A stretch of 49,743 bases of DNA, taken from a virus. The notes under the pieces are model-generated. The model saw only the letters and a list, made by a program, of their open reading frames with translations. It had not been told where the DNA came from and did no database searches. Made by a program: the position numbers and the translations under genes. Where the stretch lies: IMG/VR virus record IMGVR_UViG_3300045988_138037. One strand, 5' to 3'. The stretch's first letter is position 1, and the number at the start of each line of letters is the position of its first letter. Below, one piece after another: positions 10,177-37,278 of the stretch.

Positions 10177-13100
10177 TGATGTGTATGGATAAAATTATAA
10201 AACACAAAAACGCATATATTGATGCCTTTAAAAAAGGGGTAACAGGGGTTGAGAACAATGTTCTTTACCCTAATGTTGACTCTACTTCTCCATATTATAC
10301 AGAACTTAATGAAGAACAAGAAGTTAGTTCGTTTGCATATGAAGTAGGGAAAACTTTAAAAGGTAATATTGGTGGTTCTGGTGGTGGAGATAATAGTGGT
10401 ACAACTATACCAAATCATAACCACGATGATAGGTATGCAAAAATAGTTCACGACCACGATGGTAGATATTATACTAAAATTCAAATTGATGAGTGGAGAG
10501 ATAGACTTATAAATGGTGATTTGTTATTCAACAAGATAAATTCAAATCATATACAAGCAGGTACTATCGTAGCAGGTAGTACAATAATAGCAAATGGTGC
10601 AATAGGTGATGCTCAAATCAACAAAGTAAGTGCAGATAAACTTGATGCAGGAGTTGTTGACACATCAAAAGTAACAATATCGGGTGCTAATGGTAATTTA
10701 AAACTTAGAGGTAATAGACTTCAAGTATTTGAAGGCATAGGGTCTAAACAATTTGAAAGAGTATCTTTGGGTGATGTGAATGATGACGGTACTGTATATG
10801 GTCTTAGAGTACGTGGTGCAGACGGTCAAACTATATTGTATGATGAGAATGGAGTATATCGTGAAGGTATAACTGACGGTTCTATAAACAATGATAAAAT
10901 AGCAGGAGATGCTAATATAGACGGTGGTAAACTTAATATACACTCTGTTATAGATAATATAAATAAAGATGGTACAGGTACAATACACGGTACTAAAATA
11001 GATATAGACGGAGAGAGTGTAACATCTAAAATATTTAATATCGAACTTAACCAAGATGAACAATCTGAAACAATAGAAAGACAACAATCAGAAATAGACC
11101 AAAATAAAGAACAAATAAAACTTAAAGTAAGTAACCAAAAGTACACGGAAGATATGGCATCTATGACAAGCAAGTTAGAAAAAGCCGAGTCTGACATAGA
11201 GATTTTAAACGAAGGTATAAAACTTACTGCAAGTAAAACAGAAGTACAAAATCAAATCAACAATCTTAAAGATTTCGTATCAGGAGAATTAGGTGATATA
11301 AGTGTTGGTGGAACTAACTACTTAAATAACTCTGCACCTCGTAAAGCTACTGTTGATGAGTTAATAACTTGGGATAGAACGTTAAACGGTACTCGTAAAT
11401 TAACTTATTGGCAAGATTATAATGATAGTGTAGAAAACCCACAGATAGGTTATCATCCACATATAGACCTAGAAACCTTTCATTTCCCTTGTATAGCTCT
11501 TATAAACCGTAATGCGAAGTTTAGTATGGCTAACAGAGAACTAAGTCTTAGGCAGGAAATAAACAATGAAGAAGATATTATAATACCTAATGAACAATAC
11601 GTAATATCTTTTGACGCATATTCTGATACGAGTTTATTTAGTTTCCACGGAGGACTTTATCATAAAAATGTCGAAAGTAATAATTATAACTACCATAGCG
11701 GAAGAATGGATATAACTATCTCACAAGATAATGTAGGTACTTGGAAAAGGTATAGTTATTCGTTTACAATTCACAAAGGAATAGACACATCAGAACCTAT
11801 CTACTTTGTTATTAATGGTCATAACAATCCAGAGGGTAGTGGTTATATAAAAAATATAAAATTAGAAAAAGGTCATATCGTATCTCAATGGACTCCTTCA
11901 CAAACTGACTCTAATGATAGTTTAAATGATGTTGTAAATGATATGAAAGATTTTGTAAACAAATCTATATCTGAATACAATACAAGTATAGATGTTAGAT
12001 TTGATGGTATAACTCAAAGCGTATCTAAAATAGATAAAACTGTCAATGGTGTTAAAAATGATTTAAGTAACTTAGAGATAGGTGCTAGAAACTTAGTTAA
12101 AAACTCTGCATTTATTGACGGTAAAAATAATTGGATATTAGGTGCTAATGTAATTATTGATACAACTAAAACTTTTAATGGGCATCCTTCTTGTAAAAGT
12201 GCACAAAAAGGACTTGCAAGTAATGGTTACAGAGGGTGTGAAAACTATAACCTACCTAATAAAAACTGCTTGTCTATGAAAAAAGGAGAGATTTATACTG
12301 TAAGTTGTTGGTATTATGTTGAAGATAAAAATACTTTTAATGGAATTCTTGCCCTAGAATGTAAAGGTAAGTTAGACAACAATACTTCTAATTCAGTTAT
12401 AATGCGTGTTAGTGTCGATAAAACTGCTATGGTTGAAAGTCAATGGACTAAGATATTTAAAACAATTACTGTTGATAAAGACTATAGTGATGTGTGTGTC
12501 AGAGCGTGGGTAGGTAGAGATGGTATTGCTTGGTTTACTGATTTCAAACTTGAAAAAGGTAATAAATCTACTGATTGGTCTCCTGCACCAGATGATATGA
12601 AAGATTATGTAGATGAAGCTATAACTAATCAAAGTGCAAGTATAGATATTAAATTTGATAGTATAACAAATAGAGTAGAGTCTACTGAACAAACTGTTGA
12701 TGGTGTCAATCAAAAATATACAGAACTTAAACAAACTGTTGATAGCTTTAATTTTACAGGTTTAGTTAAGTTTGAAGATTTATCTAAACTTGGTGGCACT
12801 ATTATAAATGGTGGTAATATAGACACAACTAATCTTCGTGTAAAAGGTGAGTTGATAAGTGGTCAGATAAATGGTGTAGGTGGTATAAAATTTGCTCAAG
12901 GTGCAATTATATCTTCTTATGACTCTCATGTTGGAGGATATAAAGGCATACAAATATCTGCTCCTAGCATCAAACTTGGTGATAAAGTAGACATACATAG
13001 TGCTATAATGTATGGTGATGTTATTGGTAAAAATAATACTAGCTCTGGTACTACAACTTGGACTATGAGTAGTACAGGTGCTTTGAGTTGTGCTAGTGCT

Positions 13101-13751
13101 AAATTAAGTGGAACTTTGAGTGTAAGTGGTGCTATTTATGGTATGAATAATCTTTCACTAGCAAGAGGTTCACTATATGTACCTATCTTTGAAACAAATA
13201 TTACTTGTGATTATATAAGAGGTGGAAACTCTTCTATAGCATTTACAGATACAGGTCCAATACACTTTATATATAATGGATTGAGAAGTTCATTTATTGC
13301 AGGAGGAGTAATATTTTTACCGCATGGTGGGAATGTAAATTGCGACCACTTTAGATTGGGAGCAGGAATTATGGCATCTCCTTCTAGTGGTAGTTTTCAC
13401 TTTTTAACTGCCAATGGAACTACTTCACCACTATATGCAGGAATATTATATTCGGCAACTAGAATGTCTTTAAATGAACCTATGGTTATATCAAACAATT
13501 CTGTTTTTGATAAGATAAATAGTATAGATGTAATAGAAACTAAAGATGGATTAAGGTTATATAACCCTATACCAACCACAAAAGCCATAGACAAATCAAC
13601 CGAAGTTGTAAAGACTGAATATGATGAGGATAAAAACGAAATAAATACGAGTGTAGATTATACATCTGCAATTTCTACACTATGGAAAGCAGTACAAGAA
13701 TTAAAGCAAGAAAATGAAGAACTTAAAAAACTTATAAAAGGAGAGATTTAA
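10176..13751 (+). CDS. Tail fibre/spike protein with duplicated carbohydrate-binding-like modules and a C-terminal intramolecular-chaperone-like domain
   Basis: NHNHDDRY/HDHDGRY His motifs. Two modules end in KLEKGHIVSQWTPS and KLEKGNKSTDWSPAPDD. The C-terminus VDYTSAISTLWKAVQELKQENEELKKL resembles S74-type chaperone domains. Confidence 0.65.
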   Translation: MMCMDKIIKHKNAYIDAFKKGVTGVENNVLYPNVDSTSPYYTELNEEQEVSSFAYEVGKTLKGNIGGSGGGDNSGTTIPNHNHDDRYAKIVHDHDGRYYTKIQIDEWRDRLINGDLLFNKINSNHIQAGTIVAGSTIIANGAIGDAQINKVSADKLDAGVVDTSKVTISGANGNLKLRGNRLQVFEGIGSKQFERVSLGDVNDDGTVYGLRVRGADGQTILYDENGVYREGITDGSINNDKIAGDANIDGGKLNIHSVIDNINKDGTGTIHGTKIDIDGESVTSKIFNIELNQDEQSETIERQQSEIDQNKEQIKLKVSNQKYTEDMASMTSKLEKAESDIEILNEGIKLTASKTEVQNQINNLKDFVSGELGDISVGGTNYLNNSAPRKATVDELITWDRTLNGTRKLTYWQDYNDSVENPQIGYHPHIDLETFHFPCIALINRNAKFSMANRELSLRQEINNEEDIIIPNEQYVISFDAYSDTSLFSFHGGLYHKNVESNNYNYHSGRMDITISQDNVGTWKRYSYSFTIHKGIDTSEPIYFVINGHNNPEGSGYIKNIKLEKGHIVSQWTPSQTDSNDSLNDVVNDMKDFVNKSISEYNTSIDVRFDGITQSVSKIDKTVNGVKNDLSNLEIGARNLVKNSAFIDGKNNWILGANVIIDTTKTFNGHPSCKSAQKGLASNGYRGCENYNLPNKNCLSMKKGEIYTVSCWYYVEDKNTFNGILALECKGKLDNNTSNSVIMRVSVDKTAMVESQWTKIFKTITVDKDYSDVCVRAWVGRDGIAWFTDFKLEKGNKSTDWSPAPDDMKDYVDEAITNQSASIDIKFDSITNRVESTEQTVDGVNQKYTELKQTVDSFNFTGLVKFEDLSKLGGTIINGGNIDTTNLRVKGELISGQINGVGGIKFAQGAIISSYDSHVGGYKGIQISAPSIKLGDKVDIHSAIMYGDVIGKNNTSSGTTTWTMSSTGALSCASAKLSGTLSVSGAIYGMNNLSLARGSLYVPIFETNITCDYIRGGNSSIAFTDTGPIHFIYNGLRSSFIAGGVIFLPHGGNVNCDHFRLGAGIMASPSSGSFHFLTANGTTSPLYAGILYSATRMSLNEPMVISNNSVFDKINSIDVIETKDGLRLYNPIPTTKAIDKSTEVVKTEYDEDKNEINTSVDYTSAISTLWKAVQELKQENEELKKLIKGEI

Positions 13752-15509: not shown

Positions 15510-15678
15510 TTGTCCACATATGTTATCCACAGAGTTATCCACAGATATTAACAACTTATCCACAGGTTTTGGATAACATAAAAAAGTGCTACACACGTTG
15601 CAATTACTTGTGTGTAGCTTTGTCGAAAAAAACTTATCCACAGATTTACTAAAAAGACTTGACAAGTTTTTGTCCACA
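15510..15678 (+). promoter_or_regulatory. Cluster of seven DnaA-box-like 9-mers: four perfect TTATCCACA, two TTGTCCACA, one inverted tttggataa
   Basis: Boxes at 15510-18, 15523-31, 15535-43, 15556-64, 15568-76 (inverted, 1 mismatch), 15634-42 and 15670-78. A 9-bp inverted repeat gctacacac/gtgtgtagc lies between them. Confidence 0.75.
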
Positions 15679-16101
15679 TACCTTTTCTGGGTATAATTTT
15701 ACTTCTATTCTCGGTAGTTCTTTGTCTAAACTTACGTGCATATCACGTACTAAAACCCACCTATCTTCTTTGAACGCTACGTGTTCTAGTGCGTCCATAA
15801 CTATTTTGTGCATATTGTGGCAATCCCTTCTACGTTTATCTGGGAAGTAATACGTTAATTCACATACTAACCACACACCTTCTTCTTCTAATTTGTAATT
15901 TTGTGATTTGACTGCATTATCTACAATCATCATCACCTTTTGCATATAATCTTGACCTTTTTTCGTCATAAACCTTCTACCACGTTTAAACATATAAAGA
16001 TGGTTTATACTCACCCCAAGAGGTATCACTACGTTTAATTCTTGATTTGGGTATTTAGGTTTTAATCTTATTAAGTCGTCCATACTCATTTCATCCCCCA
16101 T
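15649..16101 (-). CDS. rusA: RusA-family Holliday junction resolvase
   Basis: PDKRRRDCHNMHKIVMDALEHVAFKEDRWV aligns with E. coli RusA [31 protein letters not shown]. Confidence 0.85.
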   Translation of the reverse strand: MGDEMSMDDLIRLKPKYPNQELNVVIPLGVSINHLYMFKRGRRFMTKKGQDYMQKVMMIVDNAVKSQNYKLEEEGVWLVCELTYYFPDKRRRDCHNMHKIVMDALEHVAFKEDRWVLVRDMHVSLDKELPRIEVKLYPEKVCGQKLVKSF

Positions 16102-16290
16102 TTATTTGTAATATCTACAGAATTTTGCTTTTAATCTTGGAAAATATATTTTTTTTAATACATTTATTACTTCACAACTTATATATTCATATGTATGTGC
16201 AAATTTACAATTTTTACAACTTCTATGTTTTTTTCTACGTTTTTTATAATCTTCTTTAGCTTCTTCTAATGTCCATTCTTTTTTCTTCAT
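16102..16290 (-). CDS. Hypothetical small basic Cys-containing protein
   Basis: SD ggggggaaag; 62-aa ORF; CKNC...C motif. Confidence 0.45.
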   Translation of the reverse strand: MKKKEWTLEEAKEDYKKRRKKHRSCKNCKFAHTYEYISCEVINVLKKIYFPRLKAKFCRYYK

Positions 16291-16434
16291 CTTTCCCCCC
16301 TATATAATAACCCTTAGACGCTCTAGGAGCAATTCTAAGGGCTTTTAATTTATTATTTGATTAATTATTCAAGCAACACCTTAATGATGCTAGGAACTCC
16401 TTGTACATCTTGGTACACGAGCTATTTTATATTT

Positions 16435-16950
16435 TTAATACTTATTATCTTGTCTTTTGTGATTTTCTTTATTTTTGTCTTTATAGCACTTGTATAAATC
16501 TTCTATATTGTATCCACACTTATTAACTACTACTCCTAATACCAATAATATTTGGTTTAAATCTTCCCAATCTTTCTCGATAAACATATCGCTTATCATA
16601 CAATCTAGCATACCGATTAAATCATTCATATCATATTCATCTGTATTATAATCGCCTGGTTGCTTTTCTTCTACTAATTCAACTCTATTATCTATTGCTA
16701 TACTTAGTATAAAGTGTAGTACATCACATGCTTCTTCTAGTTGATTAGTTTTATTTTTGTTTTTCTTCCAATATTTAAAACTTTCTATCTCGTTTGCTAA
16801 TTCAAATAACTCTGTTTTTAAAGCTAAGAATTTCTCTATATTTAGGTTAGCGTCCGCAGGTATATCATTTTCTTTTTTTACTCTTGTGTCTAATTTTCTT
16901 TGTAAGCGTCTCATTTCGTTTAATTCTTCTTGTGTAAAAACTGTTCTCAT
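16435..16950 (-). CDS. Dimeric (all-alpha) dUTPase / NTP pyrophosphohydrolase family protein
   Basis: KFLALKTELFELANEIESFKYWK, EEACDVLHFILS and a C-terminal YKDKNKENHKRQDNKY resemble dUTPase_2-family motifs. Confidence 0.65.
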   Translation of the reverse strand: MRTVFTQEELNEMRRLQRKLDTRVKKENDIPADANLNIEKFLALKTELFELANEIESFKYWKKNKNKTNQLEEACDVLHFILSIAIDNRVELVEEKQPGDYNTDEYDMNDLIGMLDCMISDMFIEKDWEDLNQILLVLGVVVNKCGYNIEDLYKCYKDKNKENHKRQDNKY

Positions 16951-16972
16951 ATTATTCCTCCAATATTATAAT

Positions 16973-17332
16973 CTACATATCGCAAATATCTTGCTCGTAC
17001 TCTTTAATTATAACATTTTTTCTATTTTCTGCCAATGCTTTAAGCCCTAATTCACACGTTTGTATTATAGCACTTATACCTGCACAAGTTATACTGTCCT
17101 CGTTATGTCCGTGTACTTCTATATTCATATAACCGTCGCCTTTAGTTATGTTTATTTTAGTTATACCTTCTAGTTTTCTCAATTTTATATCACTCCTTTT
17201 TCTTCCACTTATTATACTTGATACGTGTCCTTGTGTTATTCCGTATTTTTTCGCTATATCTATTTGTTTTTCTCCATTAAGATATGCACTCTTTATCTTT
17301 TCTATTTCGTGATTTGTTAATTTAAACTCCAT
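16973..17332 (-). CDS. prp: Fusion of an N-terminal HTH domain with a Prp-like (ribosomal protein L27-processing) cysteine protease domain
   Basis: HTH: QIDIAKKYGITQGHVSSIISG. Prp catalytic His/Cys signature: EVHGHNEDSITCAGISAIIQT (compare S. aureus Prp GHADHGEYGHDIVCAGASAV). Confidence 0.7.
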   Translation of the reverse strand: MEFKLTNHEIEKIKSAYLNGEKQIDIAKKYGITQGHVSSIISGRKRSDIKLRKLEGITKINITKGDGYMNIEVHGHNEDSITCAGISAIIQTCELGLKALAENRKNVIIKEYEQDICDM

Positions 17333-17336
17333 TTTA

Positions 17337-18161
17337 TTACCCCCACATTTTCGCCATTAAAGTGTTGTACATAAGTGATAAAACTGTCATTACTCCTGTA
17401 TGACCCGTTCCAGATGCTACTAACACATCAAGCTCTTCTAAATCTTCAATTTTTACATCTCCACAAAGTTTACCTTCGTACATATTCATAGAACAATCTA
17501 TTATTATTTGTCCGTCTTTAAAATAACTCTTATCGAAGAATTTAGCTTTACCTATACCTGTTATAACTATATCTGCGTTTTGCATCTTCTCTTTTAAGTT
17601 TTTAGTTTTTGAATGACACATTGTAACAGTTGCATTTTCATCTGTAAGCATTATTTGAAGCGGTTTACCTATTAAATTACTTCTATTTACTATTACTACG
17701 TCTTTTCCTTCTAATTCTGTGATGTGAATTAACATATTTAAAACACCAAGAGCAGTACAAGGGTACATTATTTTACCGTTTTGAGTAGTTAATCTACCTA
17801 TTTGTTTAGTACCTAGACCGTCTACGTCTTTCTCCACATCAATAGTATCAAGAGTTTTACGCTCGTCTAAGTGTTTTGGAAGTGGCAATTGAACTATTAT
17901 ACCATTTGTATCACAATCTGTGTTGTAATACTCTATAATCATTTCTAAATCTCTTTGTGGTATATCGTTTTTTAATAACGTATGTTCAACTTCTATACCT
18001 AACTCTTTGCCTAATTTAATTTTGTTCTTAACATAAGAATTTGATGCTTTATCTCCTTCAACTTGTAATATAACTAATTTAGGAGCAATGCCTTTTGTCA
18101 TTGAAGCCTTAAACGCATCCTTTATTTCTTGTGCTATTTCTTTTGTATTTATTATATTCAT
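17337..18161 (-). CDS. folD: Bifunctional 5,10-methylene-tetrahydrofolate dehydrogenase/cyclohydrolase
   Basis: PKLVILQVEGDKASNSYVKNKIK, GIIVQLPLPKHL, KDVDG, PCTALG, VVIVNRSNLIGKPL and ATVTMCHSKT motifs. Confidence 0.85.
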   Translation of the reverse strand: MNIINTKEIAQEIKDAFKASMTKGIAPKLVILQVEGDKASNSYVKNKIKLGKELGIEVEHTLLKNDIPQRDLEMIIEYYNTDCDTNGIIVQLPLPKHLDERKTLDTIDVEKDVDGLGTKQIGRLTTQNGKIMYPCTALGVLNMLIHITELEGKDVVIVNRSNLIGKPLQIMLTDENATVTMCHSKTKNLKEKMQNADIVITGIGKAKFFDKSYFKDGQIIIDCSMNMYEGKLCGDVKIEDLEELDVLVASGTGHTGVMTVLSLMYNTLMAKMWG

Positions 18162-29091: not shown

Positions 29092-29769
29092 TCACCCCCA
29101 AGTTTGTGTCATTACTATTTCATTACTGAAATCTAGTATAGTTTCATTATATACTGTTTCACCATTTATGTAATTAAGTAACTTCCATATAGCGTGTGAT
29201 GTTATCGCTAATGCACTTGGTAAAACTGTTTGAGAAACTCCACAAGCACTTACTTCTGCCTCATCATCACTATAAAATGTTTGTTCATACATCTTTGTTT
29301 GTTCTCTGTTTTTCGGGTCAACTACATATATCCTACCTCCACGTAAATCCATACGTGTTTCTATTAACAAATCAATAGAAGGGTTATTTTTTATAGCTCT
29401 GTTATATATATCTTTTCTTGATTTCATAGTATCTGTAAGCATAAATACTATACCTTGCATTGGAACAGAGCCGTCTACCTTCTCATTTCTTGCATTTACA
29501 GTAAAGCCTGTGAATAACTTTATTATATTACGTATTGATAGAGCTTTGTTTCTATCTATATCTCTAACTCCAAACATCTGATTTGGTAAATTGTGCATAC
29601 CAACTTCATCAAAATCGTATATATGTAAGTTACTTAATCCCATTTTTGCAAGTGAGAAAGCAATCCAACTTCCTGTTGCTCCTGCACCTATTATATTTAT
29701 TTTAGTATTAAACTCCTCTGGGTTTAATATGTTGATTTGACGACTAAAATCATCCATTATTCTTGACAT
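29092..29769 (-). CDS. Minimal ThiF/MoeB-type E1-like adenylyltransferase
   Basis: Rossmann GxGxxG INIIGAGATGSWIAFSLAKMG, then IYDFDEVGMHNLPNQMF (D-x-D..NL.RQ-like) and LTDTMKSR. Confidence 0.7.
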   Translation of the reverse strand: MSRIMDDFSRQINILNPEEFNTKINIIGAGATGSWIAFSLAKMGLSNLHIYDFDEVGMHNLPNQMFGVRDIDRNKALSIRNIIKLFTGFTVNARNEKVDGSVPMQGIVFMLTDTMKSRKDIYNRAIKNNPSIDLLIETRMDLRGGRIYVVDPKNREQTKMYEQTFYSDDEAEVSACGVSQTVLPSALAITSHAIWKLLNYINGETVYNETILDFSNEIVMTQTWG

Positions 29770-29796
29770 CTATATCTCTCCTTTAATTCTTTTTTT

Positions 29797-30090
29797 TTAT
29801 TTTCTATATTTTCTAACATTATATATGTTTATACTTATATCACATATACCTAAAACCTTTATTTCTTCTTTCAAACTGTTGTGTATTACATCATTTACAT
29901 ATATATCAGTTTCTGTAATTTTGATAATATCTGTTATGTTTATAGCTGATTTCATTGTGTTATCATAATCATATATAAACAAACTTGGTTCTTCGCCCGA
30001 TTTTTGTAATAACACATAATCACCTTGATATATTTTACCAAATTCTTCTTCTCTATAACTTGCATCAAATTTTATATTTACTTTACTCAT
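29797..30090 (-). CDS. Hypothetical protein upstream of the E1-like gene
   Basis: SD aagagga; 97 aa. Confidence 0.5.
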   Translation of the reverse strand: MSKVNIKFDASYREEEFGKIYQGDYVLLQKSGEEPSLFIYDYDNTMKSAINITDIIKITETDIYVNDVIHNSLKEEIKVLGICDISINIYNVRKYRK

Positions 30091-30147
30091 TGTTATATCC
30101 TCTTAAAAATATTAAATAAACGTTATGCTTCCTTTAAAATTTTGAAT

Positions 30148-30321
30148 TTAATCCATATTCTTGTGTCTATCTAGCAACAAAGCCATATGTTTTATTTGAA
30201 TTGGATTTTTAAAATCTTTAGCATACAAATTTCTATACTCGCCAGTATGTTTATTTACAACCATAATAAAACTATCTGACTCCATTCTAAGTATCCAATC
30301 TCCCCATTTACCTATTTTCAT
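30148..30321 (-). CDS. Hypothetical small protein (57 aa; not in the ORF track)
   Basis: Strong SD aaggagg 6 nt before the ATG; MKIGKWGDWILRMESDSFIMVVNKHTGEYRNLYAKDF... Confidence 0.45.
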   Translation of the reverse strand: MKIGKWGDWILRMESDSFIMVVNKHTGEYRNLYAKDFKNPIQIKHMALLLDRHKNMD

Positions 30322-30337
30322 AATTTCCTCCTTATTT

Positions 30338-30502
30338 TTATTTAATAAAACGTATCTTAAAATACATTAATATCATAAATAAATTTATCAATAATTGACT
30401 TTTGTGTACAGTATTACTCTTAAATAAAAACAAAGTAAATAAGATATATAATATCGCAAATATATCTATTGGTTCTATTTTATTATTTTTTACTATTTTC
30501 AT
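30338..30502 (-). CDS. Hypothetical small membrane protein (54 aa; not in the ORF track)
   Basis: Strong SD aggagga; hydrophobic segment IDIFAILYILFTLFLF. Confidence 0.4.
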   Translation of the reverse strand: MKIVKNNKIEPIDIFAILYILFTLFLFKSNTVHKSQLLINLFMILMYFKIRFIK

Positions 30503-30511
30503 AACTTCCTC

Positions 30512-30736
30512 CTAATTTCTATTTAAAATACTTATTAATTCTTCTTTTTGTTTTAAACTTAAATTATAAACCTTTTCTATTTCTTCCTCCCACTTTTTAG
30601 GAGCACTCCTCTTTCCTGTTTCTATCATTGATAAAAAAGATGGAGTTACATTTAATTTTATAGCCATATCTTTAAGTAGTTCTCCGTTATCTATTCTCAA
30701 TTTTCTTAAGAATTTTCCAAATTCGGTAAGTTTCAC
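30512..30736 (-). CDS. XRE/Cro-type HTH transcriptional regulator
   Basis: FGKFLRKLRIDNGELLKDMAIKLNVTPSFLSMIETGKR. Confidence 0.8.
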   Translation of the reverse strand: MKLTEFGKFLRKLRIDNGELLKDMAIKLNVTPSFLSMIETGKRSAPKKWEEEIEKVYNLSLKQKEELISILNRN

Positions 30737-30766
30737 ACTATCACTTCCTTTAAAATTTTGATATTT

Positions 30767-30937
30767 TTATTCAATAATTTCTGATATTTGATTATATATA
30801 TCAATTAATAATTCATCAATTTCTTCTCTTTTATTGTTTAATTCTCCCAAAAATCCATTATATTCTTCCATTGAAAAATACAATAAGAATTGTTTTAATA
30901 ACTTTGATTTTTCATCTGTTAGAATTATCCTAACCAT
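30767..30937 (-). CDS. Hypothetical small protein (56 aa; not in the ORF track)
   Basis: Strong SD aggagga; MVRIILTDEKSKLLKQFLLYFSMEEYNGFLGEL... Confidence 0.4.
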   Translation of the reverse strand: MVRIILTDEKSKLLKQFLLYFSMEEYNGFLGELNNKREEIDELLIDIYNQISEIIE

Positions 30938-30960
30938 AATTTCCTCCTAAAACTCCTCTT

Positions 30961-31320
30961 TTAAACTAACAATTCTGGATTTTCGTATATATTTCCTATT
31001 ACTTTACACTTATTGTATATTTTACCTACAAAATAATCTCCTGCTCTATATATCCCAAAGTGATATTCTACTTTTTCAGTTATTATTTCATCTTCAACAT
31101 TTGAATAAAATTCAACTATATCGCCTTCGTATATCTCAGTTCCATTACTATCTTTAATGCCTGTGTATTGCATCAATGTATATAAATATAAAGGTCTTAC
31201 ATCATCTTTGGTGTTTACATAGCAATCATCTCCTAGATGTGAGTATGATACTATTAAATTATCTTGGTCATACATAATATTTTCTTCTTTATTCCATGCT
31301 CTAAATTTAATTTTTCTCAT
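30961..31320 (-). CDS. YopX-family protein
   Basis: KFRAWNKEENIMY ... LMQYTGIKDSNGTEIYEGDIV ... VIGNIYENPELL. Confidence 0.85.
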   Translation of the reverse strand: MRKIKFRAWNKEENIMYDQDNLIVSYSHLGDDCYVNTKDDVRPLYLYTLMQYTGIKDSNGTEIYEGDIVEFYSNVEDEIITEKVEYHFGIYRAGDYFVGKIYNKCKVIGNIYENPELLV

Positions 31321-31329
31321 AACTTCCTC

Positions 31330-32265
31330 CTATTGTATGTAACCTAAATAACTTAAATATTGATTTTCGTTATCTTTACAGTAACTTTCTATTAATATCT
31401 CAAGGTCTATCTCTTCATCTTGTGATAAGAATACTCCTAAATAATCTATAACACTAGAACCGTGTTCTATATAATACATACATTCAAATATATCTTCTGG
31501 TTCTAGCGAGTCAAATATCTCAAGCACTTTATTTTCCTCTTCTTTTTCGCTTGTTTTTTCGTTTTTTTTTGAGTAATTACCATATCCACTATAATCTGTG
31601 TAATCACTCCACCAACTATTACAAGTAGTTACGTTGTTTTTATTAACGTTGTAAGTCTTTTTAGTTACTTTATTACCTATTTCTGATTTGATAGAGTTTA
31701 TTAACTCCTCACTTGGGTCTATTCTTGTACAAATCATCTCTTCTATCTCTGCAATTTTTCTATATAAAGACTCTATTATTTCTGTATCTCCACCATAATT
31801 TATTTCATATGGTAGTTTCTCGTATATAACACCTGTTGTAAAGTCGTATAAATCTATTCTAAAATCACCACTTTTGTTTGCTATTATACGTATAAAGAAA
31901 TCTTCTTCATTTTCTGCGAACACTTCGATTTGCTTATCATCTTGACCAGAAGGTGTAGTAGGCATATTAACGTGAGAATGACCCCACACCTTCATATTAT
32001 TCCATATCTCTACACCATTTTCTTCGTATAACAAGTCCATAGCAAATTCATTAAGTCCTTCTGTTGTTATTTCTGTTGTAGTAGCGTGTACTTCTTGTCT
32101 AAATAAAAACACATCATCTATATAAAATACATTACCTACTCTTCTTGAAGTACCCAACCAACCTATTTCTAGGTCTGATTGGCGTACATACTCCTTCATC
32201 TTGTTCATAGCGTTTAAATTTATACTTATCTTTGGTGCAAATCTATCCATTAACTTAACATTCAT
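31330..32265 (-). CDS. JAB/MPN (JAMM) metallopeptidase with a C-terminal extension
   Basis: Complete JAMM signature: EIGWLG ... HSHVNMPTTPSGQD (H-x-H-x7-S-x2-D). Confidence 0.75.
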   Translation of the reverse strand: MNVKLMDRFAPKISINLNAMNKMKEYVRQSDLEIGWLGTSRRVGNVFYIDDVFLFRQEVHATTTEITTEGLNEFAMDLLYEENGVEIWNNMKVWGHSHVNMPTTPSGQDDKQIEVFAENEEDFFIRIIANKSGDFRIDLYDFTTGVIYEKLPYEINYGGDTEIIESLYRKIAEIEEMICTRIDPSEELINSIKSEIGNKVTKKTYNVNKNNVTTCNSWWSDYTDYSGYGNYSKKNEKTSEKEEENKVLEIFDSLEPEDIFECMYYIEHGSSVIDYLGVFLSQDEEIDLEILIESYCKDNENQYLSYLGYIQ

Positions 32266-32266
32266 A

Positions 32267-33706
32267 TTATAATTCCTCTCTTTCTTCTAACTCTTCTTCG
32301 TAACAATCTTCGCACATTCCTTCTTTTTCTTCTTGACAGTCTGTACAGTACGTATATCCACACTCTTTGCATTGAAATGTATCTTCTTTTCTTACTGCAT
32401 CTCCACATTCTGCACAATCTACAAACAGTTCTTCATAGCAATCTTCACAATACCATTTATCATTTGTGAAGTTCATTTCATCCTTTCTACACTCTTCACC
32501 ACACTCACAACAAGTTTCAATTAAGTCTGAATAACAATCATCACAATGCCATTCATTGTCTATTAAGCTCATTTCATCCTTTCTACACTCTTCACCACAC
32601 TCATAACAAGTTGCAATTAATTCACAATAACAATCATCACAGTAAACATCATCTCCATACCAAGTCATATCATTGTTATGTGCTTTTTCATCACAATTAT
32701 CACAACGGCTATAATCATTTTCATAACATCTTTCACATACATACATACTATTATTATCTATCCAATAAGCGTGGTCATCACACATATGGTCTCCACAATC
32801 TTCGCAATAAAATGCACTATCTTCATCTAATTCCTCATCACATATATGGCAAACTTTGCACTCTCTATCATATGGATTTTCTAAATCATTGCCTCCTTCG
32901 TCTATACAATCCCAATTACGTATGTATGCTCCTGCTGCATCATCTGTATTAACTTGTTGTAAGAAGTTTAAAACAACTATAAACGAAGCATATATCTCGT
33001 AGTTGTTCATATTCTCAACAAGCATAGACCCTGCACTACCCCAACACGCTTCTCCATTTTCTCCATTAACGTGTGGGTGTGGGTCTTTATCTGTCCAATA
33101 TGATTTTCTGTTATAATCCTCATCTAAACCATTTATATAACAAGTCATATCGTCAAAATCAAAACTTAAAAGATATTTATTACCTTTAAACTTGTTACCT
33201 TTCTCATCATATATATCTATGTAATCGGTTTTTATTTCAACTACTTTACCTGTTGGTCTCGCTACTGCACTTACTACATATTTATGGCTTAATATAGCTT
33301 CCATATCACTTGTATAATCTCTACCTTCACCTTCACTACTTAATACTTTTACTCTGCTCATCGCATTTTTGTATGAATTCCAAGCAACATCCATATATTC
33401 TTTATATCTTTTTATATCTCTAAGGTATTCTTGTTCTTCATTTTTAGCTCTTTCTAAAGCCTTTTTATTATCTTTCAAAGCTATCTCATTAAACGCTTTG
33501 CTTAACTCTTTAACTCTATCTTCCATTGTCTTTTCTTTCCTTTCAACTAATTCAAATCTTTCCATTAAATGTCTCTCACTTGGATACTCAACTAAATTCA
33601 TCCAACTGTTACTTAATATCTCTTTAACAGTAGCAGTATCTCCTACTACCATTTTCCCAGAATTTCCATATACTCTTCTAACCACATCTCCTACTTCAAA
33701 TATCAT
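32267..33706 (-). CDS. E2 (UBC)-like domain protein fused to a C-terminal array of CxxC zinc ribbons (RING-like)
   Basis: YLLSFDFDD...DPHPHVNGENGEACWGSAG resembles UBC HPN-x(5-7)-C. The C-terminal 200 aa carry about 15 CxxC pairs, including a 96-nt tandem duplication. Confidence 0.5.
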   Translation of the reverse strand: MIFEVGDVVRRVYGNSGKMVVGDTATVKEILSNSWMNLVEYPSERHLMERFELVERKEKTMEDRVKELSKAFNEIALKDNKKALERAKNEEQEYLRDIKRYKEYMDVAWNSYKNAMSRVKVLSSEGEGRDYTSDMEAILSHKYVVSAVARPTGKVVEIKTDYIDIYDEKGNKFKGNKYLLSFDFDDMTCYINGLDEDYNRKSYWTDKDPHPHVNGENGEACWGSAGSMLVENMNNYEIYASFIVVLNFLQQVNTDDAAGAYIRNWDCIDEGGNDLENPYDRECKVCHICDEELDEDSAFYCEDCGDHMCDDHAYWIDNNSMYVCERCYENDYSRCDNCDEKAHNNDMTWYGDDVYCDDCYCELIATCYECGEECRKDEMSLIDNEWHCDDCYSDLIETCCECGEECRKDEMNFTNDKWYCEDCYEELFVDCAECGDAVRKEDTFQCKECGYTYCTDCQEEKEGMCEDCYEEELEEREEL

Positions 33707-33889: not shown

Positions 33890-34708
33890 TTAAGCATTTA
33901 TTTCTGCTATTAATCTTTGTAAGAACATTATTTTATTGTTTATAGCGTGAGCTTCTTCTATGTAAAATCTGTAAGACTTTTCTAAATCTTCTAGCTCTTT
34001 ATTTAAAACATCCATAGCTTTACTATCTTTTGACTCAACTTCTATTTCTCTTACATCAACTACTTCTTCTCTAACTTCTCTTATATCAACTACTTCTTCT
34101 CCATTAAACCCATCAACAATCTCGTTATAAACACTTAAAAACATATCTTCTTCAACTACTAATGTTTCATTACCAACTTCTATTTGTAAAAAGTTATCTC
34201 CACACATATTTATACTGTCTGTATTTATTACTTGTGGAAGTTTTACACCTAATAATATCGTTACTTCTTCTTGTGTACAATCTGTTTTTCTAAAACTAGC
34301 ATTACCTTTTATCATCTTCATAGCAACAAGTAAGTTACCATTGTTTATTCTTGTATCAAGTGCTACCTTCTCACCGTCTAATCTTACCTCGTGGTTAGAT
34401 ACACCTATATTAGCTCTTTCAAATATTTCGTAAGCAGTATCTCCTTCTGTGTACTCAACAACTTCTAATCTACCTGGCATCATACCAACCTTTATGTTTG
34501 GCATATTACCTTTTATCATTTTCATAGCAACTAATAAATTTCCATTGTGTATAGTTCTGTCTAAATCTATCTTTTCTCCGTCTAATCTTATTTCGTGATT
34601 AGATAACTCTACATCTGCTATTTCAAATATTTCTCTTGCAGTTGCTCCTTCGTTTGTAACTACCTCTACTAATCTACCTGGCATCATTCCTACTTTAATT
34701 TTTAACAT
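33890..34708 (-). CDS. Tandem ubiquitin-like (beta-grasp, ThiS/MoaD-like) domain protein with a C-terminal coiled-coil extension
   Basis: Two 68-aa repeats: (M)xKIKVGMMPGRL.VV...G.TA.EIFE.A.....NHE(I/V)RLDGEK..LD..I.NGNLLVAMKMIKGN. Confidence 0.6.
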   Translation of the reverse strand: MLKIKVGMMPGRLVEVVTNEGATAREIFEIADVELSNHEIRLDGEKIDLDRTIHNGNLLVAMKMIKGNMPNIKVGMMPGRLEVVEYTEGDTAYEIFERANIGVSNHEVRLDGEKVALDTRINNGNLLVAMKMIKGNASFRKTDCTQEEVTILLGVKLPQVINTDSINMCGDNFLQIEVGNETLVVEEDMFLSVYNEIVDGFNGEEVVDIREVREEVVDVREIEVESKDSKAMDVLNKELEDLEKSYRFYIEEAHAINNKIMFLQRLIAEINA

Positions 34709-35886: not shown

Positions 35887-37278
35887 CTATACTAACATAT
35901 CAAGACCTAAAACTTTAAGTATATGCTCTGGTTGACTAACTATAAATGCACCCCATTGGAACGTTGGGTTCACTTCTTTTATAACATCTCTTTGCTCAAA
36001 TACCATTTTTCTAAACTCTGCATAATGTTGCTCTTCTACTAAAGCATATTTAACTTCTCCACCTTGTACAAAGTAAGGTAGTATTCCATTCATCTCTTCT
36101 GGTACATCTTGACCTACACAAGAGTATATTCTGAATACGAAGTTAGTAAGTTCTTTAGCTTGTTGTTGTTCTTCTTTTAATACTAATGAACGAACTTCCC
36201 TACTCTCTCTAGCACTAAACTTAACTAATGTATTATCTTCCATTATAGCTTGTCTAAATCTTTGAGTTGATTTGTTATTAGCAACTTTATTTAATCTAAC
36301 TCTATGCTCTAAATCTCTACATAACATTTCAAAGTTTTGATTAGGTATAGTACAAAGGTAAGTTAATCTAGTACATTCATATTCACCAAGTTGTATGTAT
36401 AAGTTCTTTAAAGTGTTCATTTGAGTGTTATCTAGTTTATTACCTTCATAGTAGTTAGTTATATAATCATATGTTTGTATGAAGTTGAACGCACTCTCTC
36501 TGTTGAACTTAACTTTTATAGTTTCTCTTAATGAACTCCAATTAAATGTATAGTATAACTTATCTTCTGGTCTGTACTCGAAATCTCTAACATCTATATT
36601 GAATTCAGATTTAAGAGTTTCGTGAGTTTCTATATATCTAGCAACATCTGCTATTCTTCTTACTTGTGAGTCTGTTGGTTCTTGTAATTCATAACTCATA
36701 GCCATTAAATCTTTATTGTGCTCGAACCACTCTCTTTTGTGTATATTATTCTTAACTTCTTCAACTATTAGAGCAAAATCACTTCTATGTTTTAATGTCT
36801 CTAATGCTTCTGATAACATTAATCTTTGGTTATAGAATGATATACCGCTTAAAACTTTTATTATTTCTGATGCTTGGTTAGCATTTAAGTTATTTATGAA
36901 CTCTATTTGTTTCGCATCTATGTCCATACCTACTCTATCTCTAAGACCTGCCATTATAGTTTCTGCTTGTCTTGTTGATACTTGTGCAGTAGTAGTGTTG
37001 TAATGTTTCTTACAAAGTTCTTTTAACTTATTACTGAAAGATTTAACTATTATCTTTTGTCTAAATGCTTCTGACTCGTTAAATACAAAATTTACCTCAT
37101 CATCTAACTTAACTTCTTTCATATTGTTTTTAAACTCATCTTCTTTTAAAGTAACTTCTAAGTTAAGTATTTGATTTACTATATTATTTTGTACTCTCTC
37201 GTTACCTCTTTCAAGTGCTTCCATATATTCTGCCTTTAAGTGTTGTAACATTTTTTCTAATTCTCTTCTGTTTCTCAT
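35887..37278 (-). CDS. Hypothetical early protein (463 aa)
   Basis: SD aaaggag; long ORF; no motif recognised. Confidence 0.6.
   Translation of the reverse strand: MRNRRELEKMLQHLKAEYMEALERGNERVQNNIVNQILNLEVTLKEDEFKNNMKEVKLDDEVNFVFNESEAFRQKIIVKSFSNKLKELCKKHYNTTTAQVSTRQAETIMAGLRDRVGMDIDAKQIEFINNLNANQASEIIKVLSGISFYNQRLMLSEALETLKHRSDFALIVEEVKNNIHKREWFEHNKDLMAMSYELQEPTDSQVRRIADVARYIETHETLKSEFNIDVRDFEYRPEDKLYYTFNWSSLRETIKVKFNRESAFNFIQTYDYITNYYEGNKLDNTQMNTLKNLYIQLGEYECTRLTYLCTIPNQNFEMLCRDLEHRVRLNKVANNKSTQRFRQAIMEDNTLVKFSARESREVRSLVLKEEQQQAKELTNFVFRIYSCVGQDVPEEMNGILPYFVQGGEVKYALVEEQHYAEFRKMVFEQRDVIKEVNPTFQWGAFIVSQPEHILKVLGLDMLV

What the first reader, a model, noticed from the sequence alone, without database searches (positions are those of the whole stretch)
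32267..33706. E2-like protein carrying a zinc-ribbon array with a very recent 96-nt tandem duplication
The C-terminal ~200 aa are almost entirely CxxC-x(n)-CxxC units with acidic spacers, giving a RING/treble-clef-like arrangement. Two adjacent units (..TCYECGEECRKDEMS..HCDDCY.. and ..TCCECGEECRKDEMN..YCEDCY..) are encoded by a direct repeat of period 96 nt. The repeats start at about 32473 and 32569 and share 43 of 44 consecutive nucleotides (tcatttcatcctttctacactcttcaccacactca[c/t]aacaagtt). Such a fresh duplication suggests that the number of fingers is evolving rapidly, as expected for a substrate- or target-recognition module. The N-terminus (MIFEVGDVVRRVYGNSGKMVVGDTATVKEI) looks like a small SH3/KOW-like barrel.
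Basis: partly seen in the sequence, partly recalled or inferred. Interest (0 to 1): 0.7.

Follow-up and report, generated by a model that had tools for sequence, protein, structure and literature searches.

The report
Phage ubiquitin-like tagging cassette, E2-like enzyme
It sits in a conserved four-gene phage cassette with a tandem ubiquitin-like protein, a JAMM protease and an E1-like activating enzyme, so these phages appear to carry their own protein-tagging system.

Summary
ORF 32267..33706 (-) encodes 479 aa. Its last ~200 aa hold 14 CxxC motifs. A 96-nt tandem repeat is present, and the quoted 44-mers at 32473 and 32569 match 43/44.

The duplication is not fresh. Whole copies are 83/96 identical. 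Their 3' parts are most alike between genomes and their 5' parts within a genome. That points to an older duplication plus gene conversion. Unit number does vary among close relatives (1-3 simple units), with long forms scattered over the tree.

The central domain (res 126-282) has no Pfam, PHROG, NCBIfam, PADLOC or PDB-sequence hit, and no significant Foldseek match in PDB. A profile-profile comparison with classical E2s gives 85.6% probability. It places HPH(210-212) on HPN and invariant Cys221 on the catalytic Cys, and it beats 200 shuffled controls.

In 15/15 related loci the gene lies in the order polyUbl - X - JAMM peptidase - ThiF/E1.

The N-terminus is an SH3/KOW-like barrel. The zinc array is LIM/FYVE-like.

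Best reading: this is the E2-like, target-selecting component of a phage-borne Ubl conjugation system. The E2-like family is widespread (at least 2657 50%-identity clusters) and unannotated. No biochemistry exists.

The parts
33890..34708 (-). Poly-ubiquitin-like protein (272 aa). It has two tandem 68-aa beta-grasp-like units (34505..34708 and 34301..34504), each ending ...KMIKGN, followed by a 136-aa tail with a C-terminal helical segment.
   Evidence: 204-nt tandem repeat. Sub-threshold SAMP2 hits: NCBIfam E 0.0025, and Pfam SAMP2/Ub-RnfH on homologues. Homologues have 1-3 units, all ending K-x-(I/V)-K-G-N, and several ORFs stop 0-2 residues after that N. The gene is present upstream of X in 13/13 loci that have upstream sequence.
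32267..33706 (-). Protein X, the finding (479 aa): SH3/KOW-like barrel + long helix + E2-like core + zinc-finger array + acidic tail.
   Evidence: ORF. AF2 full-length model, mean pLDDT 85.6. 127 close homologues, all metagenomic.
33533..33706 (-). N-terminal small beta-barrel (res 1-58), SH3/KOW-like. It is accessory: absent or duplicated in some relatives.
   Evidence: Five strands in the AF2 model. Foldseek hits to OapB KOW, Spt5 KOW and SH3 domains at probability 0.95-1.0. Absent or repeated in homologues.
33332..33532 (-). Single long helix (res 61-124), basic (pI 9.2), a possible coiled-coil or dimerisation stalk.
   Evidence: AF2 DSSP H61-124. Composition. The coiled-coil role is inferred.
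32861..33331 (-). Conserved alpha/beta core (res 126-282), a divergent E2(UBC)-like domain. Layout: helix, six-strand meander, HPH loop, invariant Cys221, three helices.
   Evidence: Domain AF2 model pLDDT 94.9, pTM 0.90. Invariant W204 H210 P211 H212 C221 G223 L249 D256 A258 G259. hhalign to E2s 85.6%. At least 2657 50%-identity clusters.
33044..33079 (-). HPHVNGENGEAC motif (res 210-221), aligned to HPN...Cys of E2s. Cys221 is the proposed thioester site.
   Evidence: Invariant in 117 sequences. Register in hhalign.
32717..32860 (-). First eight-ligand zinc module (C286,C289 / C301,C304 / C309,H312 / C324,C327), FYVE/RING/PHD-like spacing. It is the only zinc module kept in all relatives, though reduced to four Cys in the ~450-aa class.
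   Evidence: Conservation. Weak profile hits to FYVE, p44 and NOT4 RING. Foldseek to FYVE-type domains 2yw8 and 1zbd at probability 1.0.
32420..32707 (-). Three simple 32-aa CxxC-x17-CxxC treble-clef units (res 334-429), LIM-like. Relatives have 1, 2 or 3.
   Evidence: LIM hits.
32445..32636 (-). The tandem duplication in its best register: copy A 32541..32636 and copy B 32445..32540, 83/96 nt identical.
32303..32419 (-). Last eight-Cys zinc module (res 430-468), followed by an acidic tail (32270..32302).
   Evidence: Cys pattern. Composition.
31330..32265 (-). JAMM/MPN+ metallopeptidase (311 aa). Its start codon lies one base after X's stop. Motif E33 ... H96-S-H98-x7-S106-x2-D109 is at 31939..31980.
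   Evidence: Exact JAMM motif. PADLOC JAB E 5e-4. All 11 PDB matches (E<=1) of a 6-sequence profile are JAMM enzymes: Rpn11 E 0.018, CSN5, BRCC36. Downstream of X in 15/15 loci.
29092..29769 (-). Minimal ThiF/MoeB-type E1-like adenylating enzyme (225 aa). GAGATG nucleotide loop at 29671..29688. Conserved Cys176 (SACG) at 29242..29244.
   Evidence: Pfam ThiF 3.9e-21. NCBIfam ThiF models. E. coli ThiF in PDB 2e-6. Present in 15/15 loci. Cys conservation.
35887..37278 (-). Possible fifth component: a conserved ~450-500-aa protein of unknown function upstream of the cassette.
   Evidence: Same position in L001-L004. Pairwise similarity is 52% between the window and L001; it is 33%, 23% and 30% (the last over only 50 aa) for L003-L004, L002-L003 and L001-L004. 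No hit in any family library. Membership is inferred only.

Best explanation
Protein X is the conjugating (E2-like) and target-selecting subunit of a phage-encoded ubiquitin-like protein conjugation cassette.

Proposed steps:
1. The JAMM peptidase cuts the tandem Ubl precursor after the Gly of each ...IKG|N. This releases ~67-aa Ubl monomers with a C-terminal Gly.
2. The minimal ThiF-type E1 adenylates that Gly, possibly forming a thioester on its conserved Cys176.
3. The Ubl is passed to Cys221 of X. Cys221 sits 11 residues after an HPH motif, in the position of the E2 HPN...Cys active site.
4. X transfers the Ubl to target proteins. It selects them with its own appended modules: the zinc-finger array (a conserved FYVE/RING-like module plus a variable number of LIM-like units), the SH3/KOW-like barrel and the long helix. 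X therefore works as a fused E2/E3-like enzyme, and no separate E3 is encoded.

The cassette lies in the replication/early arm of a ~50-kb, 32% GC tailed phage, so the targets are probably host proteins or phage proteins acted on early in infection.

The number of simple zinc units changes by unequal recombination between the 96-nt repeats, and the copies are partly homogenised by gene conversion.

Shown: the gene order and its conservation; the JAMM motif; ThiF homology; the tandem Ubl architecture; profile similarity of X to E2s; the invariant Cys; copy-number variation.

Inferred: every catalytic step, the cleavage site, the targets and the biological role.
For: Cassette: Ubl - X - JAMM - ThiF lie on one strand in 15/15 loci for JAMM and ThiF, and in 13/13 for Ubl. 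These loci range from 98% down to ~25% identity to X. X's stop and the JAMM start are one base apart.

E2 likeness: hhalign gives 47.5% probability with 43 sequences and 85.6% (P 5.5e-6, 114 columns) with 250 sequences. It aligns helix 1, the beta meander, HPH to HPN and Cys221 to the catalytic Cys. The real score is 39.5, against maxima of 17.9 (100 column shuffles) and 27.5 (100 block shuffles), and 15.4 for the reversed alignment. H210, P211, H212 and C221 are invariant in 117 sequences. The secondary-structure order of the confident domain model matches the UBC layout.

Ubl: the units end in IKG-N, like SAMP2's IKGG (SAMP2 sequence recalled from memory). Sub-threshold SAMP2/ThiS/Ub-RnfH hits recur. 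Single-unit homologues carry only 1-3 residues after the Gly, as ubiquitin precursors do.

JAMM. E1.

Zinc array as a protein-binding module: LIM and FYVE matches, and it is strongly acidic.

Rapid turnover of unit number.
Against: X shows no hit to UQ_con or any Prok-E2 Pfam model, nor to PADLOC E2 models, even at E<=0.1.

Foldseek of a very confident domain model finds nothing significant in PDB. E2s appear only at E about 1, probability about 0.1 and TM 0.23-0.35. None of the listed top-50 PDB matches is a bacterial E2-like structure.

The sheet has six strands rather than four, and the Asn of HPN is a His.

The E1 is a bare 225-aa adenylation domain with no recognisable ubiquitin-fold or E2-binding domain. 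SAMP- and ThiS-type systems work without any E2.

There is no experimental evidence of any kind.
Confidence: 0.55

Rival explanations
1. The cassette is a Ubl/E1/JAMM system, but X is not an E2. It would be a new kind of partner, either an adaptor/E3-like substrate receptor or the main target of modification. The invariant His-Pro-His...Cys...Asp would then form a metal site or a different catalytic centre, and the Ubl would be transferred directly from the E1, as in archaeal SAMPylation.
For: There is no significant structural match to any E2 in PDB despite a model with pLDDT 94.9. No family-library hit exists. H210, H212, C221 and D256 are all invariant, which also fits a metal site. Structural neighbours are only other uncharacterised phage proteins. 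E2-independent Ubl systems exist (SAMP/UbaA; established knowledge).
Against: The hhalign similarity to E2s runs over 114 columns in the right order and beats the block-shuffled controls that keep the HPN-Cys block. The motif spacing is 11 residues from the first His to Cys, against 10 in UBE2D2. The strict adjacency of X to the cassette fits an enzyme of the pathway.
Confidence: 0.25
2. The cassette is a sulfur-carrier pathway (ThiS/MoaD-like thiocarboxylate made by ThiF, with the JAMM enzyme unmasking the C-terminal Gly). X would be the sulfur-accepting or sulfur-inserting enzyme for a nucleoside, DNA or cofactor modification, with Cys221 carrying a persulfide and the zinc fingers gripping the substrate.
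For: The E1 is closest to ThiF/MoeB-type enzymes. ThiF homologues in cultured phages are annotated as thiamine biosynthesis proteins. JAMM + Ubl + E1 sulfur pathways are known (Iyer et al. 2006, PMC1779556). The cassette sits among DNA replication and nucleotide-metabolism genes.
Against: No rhodanese, cysteine desulfurase or PP-loop ATPase was detected among the window ORFs scanned against Pfam, PHROGs or NCBIfam. Head-to-tail poly-Ubl precursors of 2-3 units are a hallmark of conjugation systems (PMC1779556 row 6e). The zinc array is extremely acidic (pI 4.05), which is poor for nucleic-acid binding. X resembles E2s, not any known sulfurtransferase.
Confidence: 0.1
3. X is a stand-alone zinc-finger regulator or DNA/RNA-binding protein, unrelated in function to its neighbours. 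The E2-like similarity would be a chance resemblance.
For: Many CxxC zinc ribbons in phage early regions are DNA-binding. The N-terminal barrel resembles KOW domains, some of which bind RNA (OapB).
Against: Gene order is conserved across very divergent loci. Most family members (~450 aa) have only one zinc module, so the array is not the core of the protein. The array is highly acidic.
Confidence: 0.05

Closest known systems
Bil (bacterial ISG15-like) antiphage systems: BilA Ubl, BilB E2, BilC JAMM, BilD E1
   Same: The same four functions are present (Ubl, E2-type protein, JAMM peptidase, E1). No separate E3 is encoded, and the E2 is proposed to pick the target itself (PMC11601596).
   Different: Bil is a bacterial defence operon, whereas this cassette is on phage genomes in the replication/early arm. 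The E1 here is a bare 225-aa ThiF domain rather than an IAD-AAD-CYS multidomain E1. X is not detected by PADLOC's defence-system models. X carries zinc-finger, barrel and helix extensions. The Ubl is a head-to-tail tandem ending in GN.
Bub / type 6E operons (polyUbl, E2-like or RWD-like, JAMM-E1 fusion, DUF6527)
   Same: Ubl proteins with 1-3 tandem beta-grasp domains. A JAMM peptidase processes the Ubl. The E2-like proteins are divergent. Zinc-binding partner proteins were noted in 6e operons.
   Different: Bub works through Ser oxyesters and lacks catalytic Cys residues, whereas X has an invariant Cys. Bub fuses Ubl-E2 and JAMM-E1, whereas here there are four separate genes. No DUF6527 protein is present. 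Bub is bacterial rather than phage-borne.
Classical UBC/E2 enzymes (e.g. UBE2D2, UBC9)
   Same: Helix, beta meander, HPx motif, Cys about 10 residues later, then helices, in that order. Profile similarity 85.6%.
   Different: HPH instead of HPN. Six strands rather than four. No significant sequence-family or Foldseek match. The domain is embedded in a 479-aa multidomain protein.
Archaeal (Caldiarchaeum-type) Ub / E1 / E2 / small RING finger / Rpn11 operon
   Same: A compact prokaryotic-style operon that combines Ub-like, E1, E2 and JAMM components with a zinc-finger E3-like component (PMC5654768, title and abstract listed).
   Different: There the RING protein is a separate small gene and the E2 is a recognisable UBC. 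Here the cross-brace-like zinc module is fused to the E2-like core, and its RING identity is unproven.
LIM-domain proteins (CRP1, LMO2, Lhx3, PINCH)
   Same: Chains of treble-clef CxxC...CxxC zinc units. These are the best PDB sequence and fold matches of the array.
   Different: The scores are weak (E 1e-3 to 0.1). The linkers between zinc sites are 6-7 residues rather than 2. Eight-ligand FYVE/RING-like modules flank the simple units.
Lambda/T1 tail-assembly Ubl (TAPI) with JAB-containing TAPK
   Same: It is the one previously described phage pairing of a Ubl with a JAB peptidase (PMC1779556).
   Different: It is a tail-assembly locus with no E1 and no E2-like protein, in a structural-gene context.

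Membership tests
UBC / E2 superfamily | Significant match to a curated E2 model (Pfam UQ_con, Prok-E2_A-E, PADLOC E2 models) | tested here: not met
   No such hit for X at E<=0.1 in Pfam or PADLOC, and none in NCBIfam at E<=0.01. None for ten distant family members either.
UBC / E2 superfamily | Profile-profile homology to E2s over most of the domain, with the active-site Cys aligned | tested here: met
   hhalign 85.6% probability, P 5.5e-6, 114 columns. HPH aligns with HPN and C221 with the catalytic Cys. The score exceeds 200 shuffled controls and the reversed control.
UBC / E2 superfamily | UBC fold (N-terminal helix, antiparallel meander, Cys loop, crossover helix plus C-terminal helices) recognised by structure comparison | tested here: inconclusive
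   The element order in the pLDDT 94.9 model fits, but with six strands. Foldseek against PDB lists UbcH7, UbcH5b and Ubc9 only at E 0.9-2.2, TM 0.23-0.35 and probability <=0.12.
UBC / E2 superfamily | Invariant catalytic Cys about 10 residues after an HPN-type motif | tested here: met
   H210-P211-H212 and C221 are invariant in 117 sequences. Asn is replaced by His.
UBC / E2 superfamily | Forms a thioester with an E1-activated Ubl | not testable with these tools
   Needs biochemistry.
Prokaryotic Ubl-E1-E2-JAB conjugation operons (Iyer 2006 class 6; Bil/Bub) | Conserved neighbourhood of Ubl, E1-like, E2-like and JAB genes | tested here: met
   Same order and strand in 15/15 loci for JAB and ThiF, and in 13/13 for Ubl.
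Prokaryotic Ubl-E1-E2-JAB conjugation operons (Iyer 2006 class 6; Bil/Bub) | Component proteins match the Bil/Bub/CBASS family models | tested here: not met
   PADLOC gives only a weak JAB hit (E 5e-4) and nothing for X, the Ubl or the 463-aa protein. ThiF scores far below the cut-offs of 6A-MBL cap2_3 and PRTRC_ThiF.
JAMM/MPN+ peptidases (neighbour gene) | E ... HxH-x7-S-x2-D metal-binding motif | tested here: met
   E33 and H96-S-H98-VNMPTTP-S106-GQ-D109, invariant in 6 homologues. All 11 PDB matches (E<=1) of the profile are JAMM enzymes.
Ubiquitin-like beta-grasp modifiers (neighbour gene) | Beta-grasp fold with a C-terminal Gly exposed for adenylation | tested here: inconclusive
   Only sub-threshold SAMP2/ThiS/Ub-RnfH hits. 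A conserved ...KGN end with 0-2 trailing residues.
RING / cross-brace zinc fingers (first zinc module) | Eight ligands binding two zinc ions in a cross-brace, with an E2-binding surface | tested here: inconclusive
   The C2-C2-CH-C2 spacing fits. There are weak FYVE, p44 and NOT4 sequence hits and FYVE-type fold hits at probability 1.0. Ligand pairing and E3 activity could not be examined.
LIM domains (simple zinc units) | Two treble-clef zinc sites separated by a 2-residue linker; Pfam LIM match | tested here: not met
   X has no Pfam LIM hit. Its linkers are 6-7 residues. LIM proteins are only the nearest fold and sequence neighbours, at E 1e-3 to 0.1.

The most novel reading that the evidence does not exclude
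Tailed phages from several lineages carry a complete, self-contained ubiquitination-like machine. The lineages include gut Clostridia-type phages, marine phages and Xanthomonas jumbo phages. The machine consists of a poly-Ubl precursor, a JAMM processing enzyme, a minimal E1, and a previously unrecognised deep branch of the E2 fold fused to RING/FYVE- and LIM-like zinc modules. Phages would use it early in infection to tag host proteins, for example defence or proteostasis factors, or their own replication proteins. The fast-changing zinc-unit number would record an arms race over target recognition. This would be the viral counterpart of the bacterial Bil/Bub/CBASS ubiquitin-like defences.
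Probability: 0.35. Interest if true: 0.85.

Novelty: new variant of a known kind. Interest (0 to 1): 0.65.

Why it matters
Ubiquitin-like conjugation in bacteria has so far been described as a host defence against phages (CBASS Cap2/Cap3, Bil, and probably Bub).

This cassette has the same logic but is carried by the phages themselves. It is conserved from near-identical relatives down to ~25% identity. Its core domain is represented by at least 2657 50%-identity clusters, yet it is absent from Pfam, PHROGs, NCBIfam and PADLOC.

If X is a working E2, three things follow. It adds a deep, easily tested branch to the E2 fold: HPH instead of HPN, with the zinc module in cis. It gives a natural E2-E3 fusion. 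It also suggests that phages rewrite host or viral proteins by Ubl tagging.

The system is small, at four genes, and a related version exists in cultured Xanthomonas phages, so it is directly testable.

The repeat itself is a clean small example of unequal recombination plus gene conversion reshaping a binding array.

Tried and rejected
Searches that found nothing useful for X:
- Pfam, PADLOC, PHROGs and NCBIfam gave no hit beyond coiled-coil noise and phrog_4317 on the N-terminal barrel.
- Megablast and tblastn of the region, of X and of a ~550-aa family member against INPHARED phages gave no match.
- PDB sequence/profile searches of full-length X found only weak LIM/FYVE hits in the zinc region. 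The core domain gave nothing.
- Foldseek of the full-length model found only LIM, KOW/SH3 and weak RBR hits, because the array dominates. I therefore modelled the core alone.
- Foldseek of the core against PDB gave no significant match, best E 0.6. LytR-Cps2A-Psr and AvrB top the list at probability <=0.1 and I rejected them as noise.

Readings rejected:
- The 'fresh duplication' reading.
- 'Independent duplications in each long form of the query type'. This is disfavoured because the copy-specific 3' ends (…WH|CDDC and NFTND.WY|CEDC) are shared by the query, P0011 and P0014. The extra units of P0034/P0040 (C-terminal) and P0052 are separate events at other positions.

Tests on cultured or deposited phages:
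- hhalign of the X profile against Flavobacterium phage FpV4 gp49 and gp51-53 gave no similarity. Against the 491-aa ORF of MT835544 it gave only 4% probability, despite a QPH...C motif.
- A first shuffle-control script timed out, and two more failed on hhalign options.

Genomes and literature:
- The genome-contig scan gave only one locus, a Lachnospiraceae MAG contig, so host assignment remains weak.
- Six literature searches found no description of a phage-borne cassette of this kind. The library lacks most subscription-journal papers, so this is absence of evidence only.
Full report
**1. The observation**

I call it X. Its last 197 residues hold 32 Cys, 14 CxxC motifs and 64 acidic against 14 basic residues, with pI 4.05.

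Tandem Repeats Finder reports a period-96 repeat at 32435..32641, with 2.2 copies and 86% matches. The quoted 44-mer occurs exactly twice, at 32473-32516 and 32569-32612, differing at one base. None of 100 shuffles gave any match. In the best register the copies are 32541..32636 and 32445..32540 and are 83/96 identical. No other in-frame lag in the gene exceeds 56/96.

**2. How old is the duplication?**

Identity is very uneven: 63/68 in the 5' part of the unit but 20/28 in the 3' part. In the zinc-unit register the copies differ at 13 of 32 codons, only 2 of them synonymously.

The same two copies, with the same copy-specific endings (...SLIDN.WH|CDDC and ...NFTND.WY|CEDC), occur in relatives at 94% (P0001, P0002) and 76% (P0011, P0014) protein identity.

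I fetched the DNA of P0011, P0014 and the single-copy P0003 and compared units.
- In the 3' 28 nt, corresponding copies in different genomes are the most alike (25-26/28, against 20-21/28 within a genome).
- In the 5' 68 nt, the two copies within one genome are the most alike (63/68 in the query and 59/68 in P0014, against 55/68 between them).
- The within-genome 5' similarity includes lineage-specific synonymous states, for example TGC-CAC in both P0014 copies.

This is the signature of an older duplication whose 5' part has been homogenised by gene conversion. It is not the signature of a fresh duplication.

**3. Copy-number variation**

Copy number does vary.
- Among 120 homologues, forms of 443-448 aa have 11 CxxC motifs, forms of 477-479 aa have 13-14, and forms of 418-422 aa have 9.
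- The basic plan is an eight-ligand module, then 1-3 simple 32-aa CxxC-x17-CxxC units, then a final eight-Cys module.
- The extra unit is a tandem copy in the query, P0001, P0002, P0011 and P0014. It is a C-terminal addition in P0034 and P0040, and it sits at a different position in P0052.
- On a neighbour-joining tree of the non-repeat part, long forms are scattered in at least six places, each with short sisters. The 447-aa P0003 is nested among the query's closest relatives.

Recurrent gain and loss by unequal recombination, or exchange of arrays between phages, is therefore well supported.

**4. Anatomy of X**

AlphaFold2 with 117 homologues gives mean pLDDT 85.6. The parts are:
- a five-strand barrel (res 1-55);
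- one long helix (61-124);
- an alpha/beta core (132-264);
- the zinc region (283-468). The second repeat copy (385-414) is the only low-confidence part.

Foldseek of the whole model matches LIM proteins for the array (CRP1, LMO2, Lhx3, PINCH; E 1e-3 to 0.07). It matches FYVE-type domains for an eight-ligand module (2yw8, 1zbd; probability 1.0). It matches KOW/SH3 domains for the N-terminal barrel (OapB, Spt5 KOW, SH3; probability 0.95-1.0). Profile searches of PDB sequences agree for the zinc region: LIM, FYVE, p44 and NOT4 RING, all weak.

The barrel is accessory: it is missing in some relatives and doubled in others. Only the first zinc module is universal. It is reduced to a four-Cys ribbon in the commonest ~450-aa architecture.

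**5. The core domain**

Residues 126-282 are the most conserved part. W204, H210, P211, H212, C221, G223, L249, D256, A258 and G259 are invariant in 117 sequences.

The domain has no hit in Pfam, PADLOC, PHROGs or NCBIfam, and none in PDB by sequence profile.

Modelled alone, it is very confident (pLDDT 94.9, pTM 0.90). Its order is helix, six-strand meander, a long loop with HPH and Cys221, then three helices.

Foldseek against PDB gives no significant match (best E 0.6). UbcH7, UbcH5b and Ubc9 do appear, but at E 0.9-2.2 and TM 0.23-0.35.

Against predicted viral structures, the domain matches only uncharacterised phage proteins. These include crAss-like and marine ones, with TM 0.5-0.6 and probability 1.0.

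An exhaustive HMM search finds 2657 50%-identity clusters at E<=1e-3 and 1051 at E<=1e-10. Most are ~450 aa with the domain at residues ~235-385.

**6. Is the core an E2?**

- With the 43-sequence core alignment the result is 47.5% probability.
- With a 250-sequence alignment it is 85.6%, P 5.5e-6, over 114 columns.
- In both, helix 1 aligns with helix 1, the meander with the meander, HPH with HPN, Cys221 with the catalytic Cys, and the following helix and loop with the crossover helix.

Controls: the reversed E2 alignment scores 15.4. One hundred column shuffles reach at most 17.9. One hundred 12-column block shuffles, which keep the HPN-Cys block intact, reach at most 27.5. The real score is 39.5.

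The similarity is therefore more than a shared motif. Together with the negative library and Foldseek results, I rate homology to the UBC fold as likely but not established.

**7. Context**

The downstream gene (31330..32265) starts one base after X's stop. It carries an exact JAMM motif: E33, then H96-S-H98-x7-S106-x2-D109. It has a weak PADLOC JAB hit. All 11 PDB matches (E<=1) of a six-sequence profile are JAMM isopeptidases: Rpn11, CSN5 and BRCC36.

The gene at 29092..29769 is a 225-aa ThiF-type adenylating enzyme (Pfam 3.9e-21; E. coli ThiF 2e-6). It has a GAGATG loop and a conserved Cys176.

The upstream gene (33890..34708) consists of two tandem 68-aa units encoded by a 204-nt repeat, plus a 136-aa tail. 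The units give sub-threshold SAMP2, ThiS and Ub-RnfH hits. Every unit in every homologue ends K-x-(I/V)-K-G-N. Homologues have one, two or three units, and their ORFs often stop 0-2 residues after that N. This is the layout of polyubiquitin precursors.

In 15 of 15 loci carrying an X homologue, JAMM and ThiF follow on the same strand. These loci came from metagenomes, IMG/VR and one MAG, and range from 98% down to ~25% identity. In 13 of 13 loci with upstream sequence, the Ubl gene precedes X.

In the window, a YopX gene and small ORFs are inserted between JAMM and ThiF.

The window is a tailed-phage genome of ~50 kb and 31.7% GC. It encodes terminase, portal, major head, tail, DNA polymerase, DnaB and DnaG. 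The cassette lies in the replication/early arm.

**8. Reach of the cassette**

ThiF homologues occur in cultured phages, where they are annotated 'thiamine biosynthesis protein'.
- In Flavobacterium phage FpV4 and in a human-gut phage record (MT835544), the ORF just upstream of ThiF has a JAMM motif.
- In Xanthomonas jumbo phage PhiXhv-12, the 892-aa protein just upstream of ThiF matches the X core at 80.7% hhalign probability (IHPH...C.G). It ends in a Cys-rich acidic tail.
- FpV4 gp52 and the MT835544 491-aa ORF could not be linked by sequence.

**9. Mechanism proposed**

JAMM trims the tandem Ubl at KG|N. ThiF adenylates the exposed Gly. The Ubl moves to Cys221 of X. X then transfers it to targets chosen by its own zinc modules, barrel and helix, acting as a fused E2/E3-like enzyme.

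The cassette's composition and conservation, the motifs and the profile similarity are shown. All chemistry, the cleavage site, the targets and the biological role (host takeover or counter-defence) are inferred.

Rivals:
- X is a non-E2 partner or the target in an E2-independent, SAMP-like system.
- The cassette is a sulfur-carrier pathway. No sulfurtransferase partner was detected among the window ORFs scanned against the family libraries, and tandem Ubl precursors argue against it.
- X is an unrelated zinc-finger regulator. The conserved synteny and the acidic array argue against it.

**10. Comparison with known systems**

The cassette has the same logic as Bil (Ubl, E2, JAMM, E1, no E3). 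It also resembles the 6E/Bub operons with their poly-Ubls. It differs in several ways:
- it is phage-borne;
- its E1 is minimal;
- its four genes are separate;
- it has an invariant Cys, whereas Bub uses Ser oxyesters;
- its E2-like family is undetected by existing models and is fused to zinc modules.

Six full-text searches found no description of such a phage cassette. The library is incomplete, so prior description cannot be excluded.

**11. Verdict**

The E2-like core, the zinc treble clefs, the SH3/KOW barrel and rapid unit turnover all hold. The 'fresh' duplication does not. The most interesting result lies outside the original claim: X belongs to a widespread, unannotated phage Ubl-conjugation-like cassette.

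Noticed in passing
window 34301..34687 (within gene 33890..34708, minus strand): A 204-nt tandem repeat (1.9 copies, 79% matches) encodes two ubiquitin-like units, each ending KMIKGN. Relatives have 1, 2 or 3 units, so the modifier gene also varies in copy number.
   Followed up: partly
window 35887..37278 (minus strand): A 463-aa protein with no hit in Pfam, PHROGs, PADLOC or NCBIfam. A protein of 447-497 aa sits in the same position upstream of the cassette in L001-L004. Similarity is 52% between the window and L001, and 33%, 23% and 30% (over 50 aa) for L003-L004, L002-L003 and L001-L004. It could be a fifth component or the target.
   Followed up: partly
window 29770..31329 (minus strand): A YopX-family gene (30961..31320) and several small ORFs separate the JAMM and ThiF genes here and in the closest IMG/VR relatives (L013-L015). 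In most other loci ThiF follows JAMM directly. This looks like a mosaic insertion into the cassette.
   Followed up: partly
L007 3250..5928 (Xanthomonas phage PhiXhv-12, PV764601.1 140754..143432): An 892-aa 'hypothetical protein' immediately upstream of the phage's ThiF gene. It contains an X-like core (hhalign 80.7%, motif IHPH...C.G) and a very Cys-rich acidic C-terminus. This is a cultured-phage handle on the family.
   Followed up: partly
L006 4704..5975 (Flavobacterium phage FpV4 gp51) and L008 5069..5980 (MT835544): ORFs with exact JAMM motifs (HSHNTMAVFFSGTD and HSHVNMATNPSGVD) lie directly upstream of ThiF genes that are annotated as thiamine biosynthesis. The JAMM-ThiF pair is therefore broader in phages than the X family detectable by sequence.
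   Followed up: partly
window 15649..18161 (minus strand): Nucleotide and DNA metabolism genes: a bifunctional FolD-like tetrahydrofolate dehydrogenase/cyclohydrolase (17337..18161), a dimeric-type dUTPase (16435..16950), RusA (15649..16101), and a small protein with a sub-threshold Prp-peptidase hit (16973..17332).
   Followed up: no
window 90..2405 (plus strand): A 771-aa structural protein that combines collagen-like/tail-fibre segments with Ig-like domains. It is followed by very large tail or host-range proteins (4618..9960, 1780 aa; 10176..13751, 1191 aa).
   Followed up: no
window 32262..32417 and 32333..32952 (both strands): Several ORFs of 50-113 aa overlap the zinc-array coding region in other frames, with His-, Leu- or Arg-rich low-complexity translations. 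They are by-products of the repetitive, AT-rich sequence and not genes.
   Followed up: no
L012 (JADIMX010000065.1, MAG Candidatus Fimicola merdigallinarum, Lachnospiraceae): This is the only hit among 185,579 representative genomes, an 18-kb contig in a chicken-gut Lachnospiraceae MAG carrying X-JAMM-ThiF. It gives a weak host hint (Clostridia) and suggests the cassette is essentially confined to phage genomes rather than bacterial chromosomes.
   Followed up: partly
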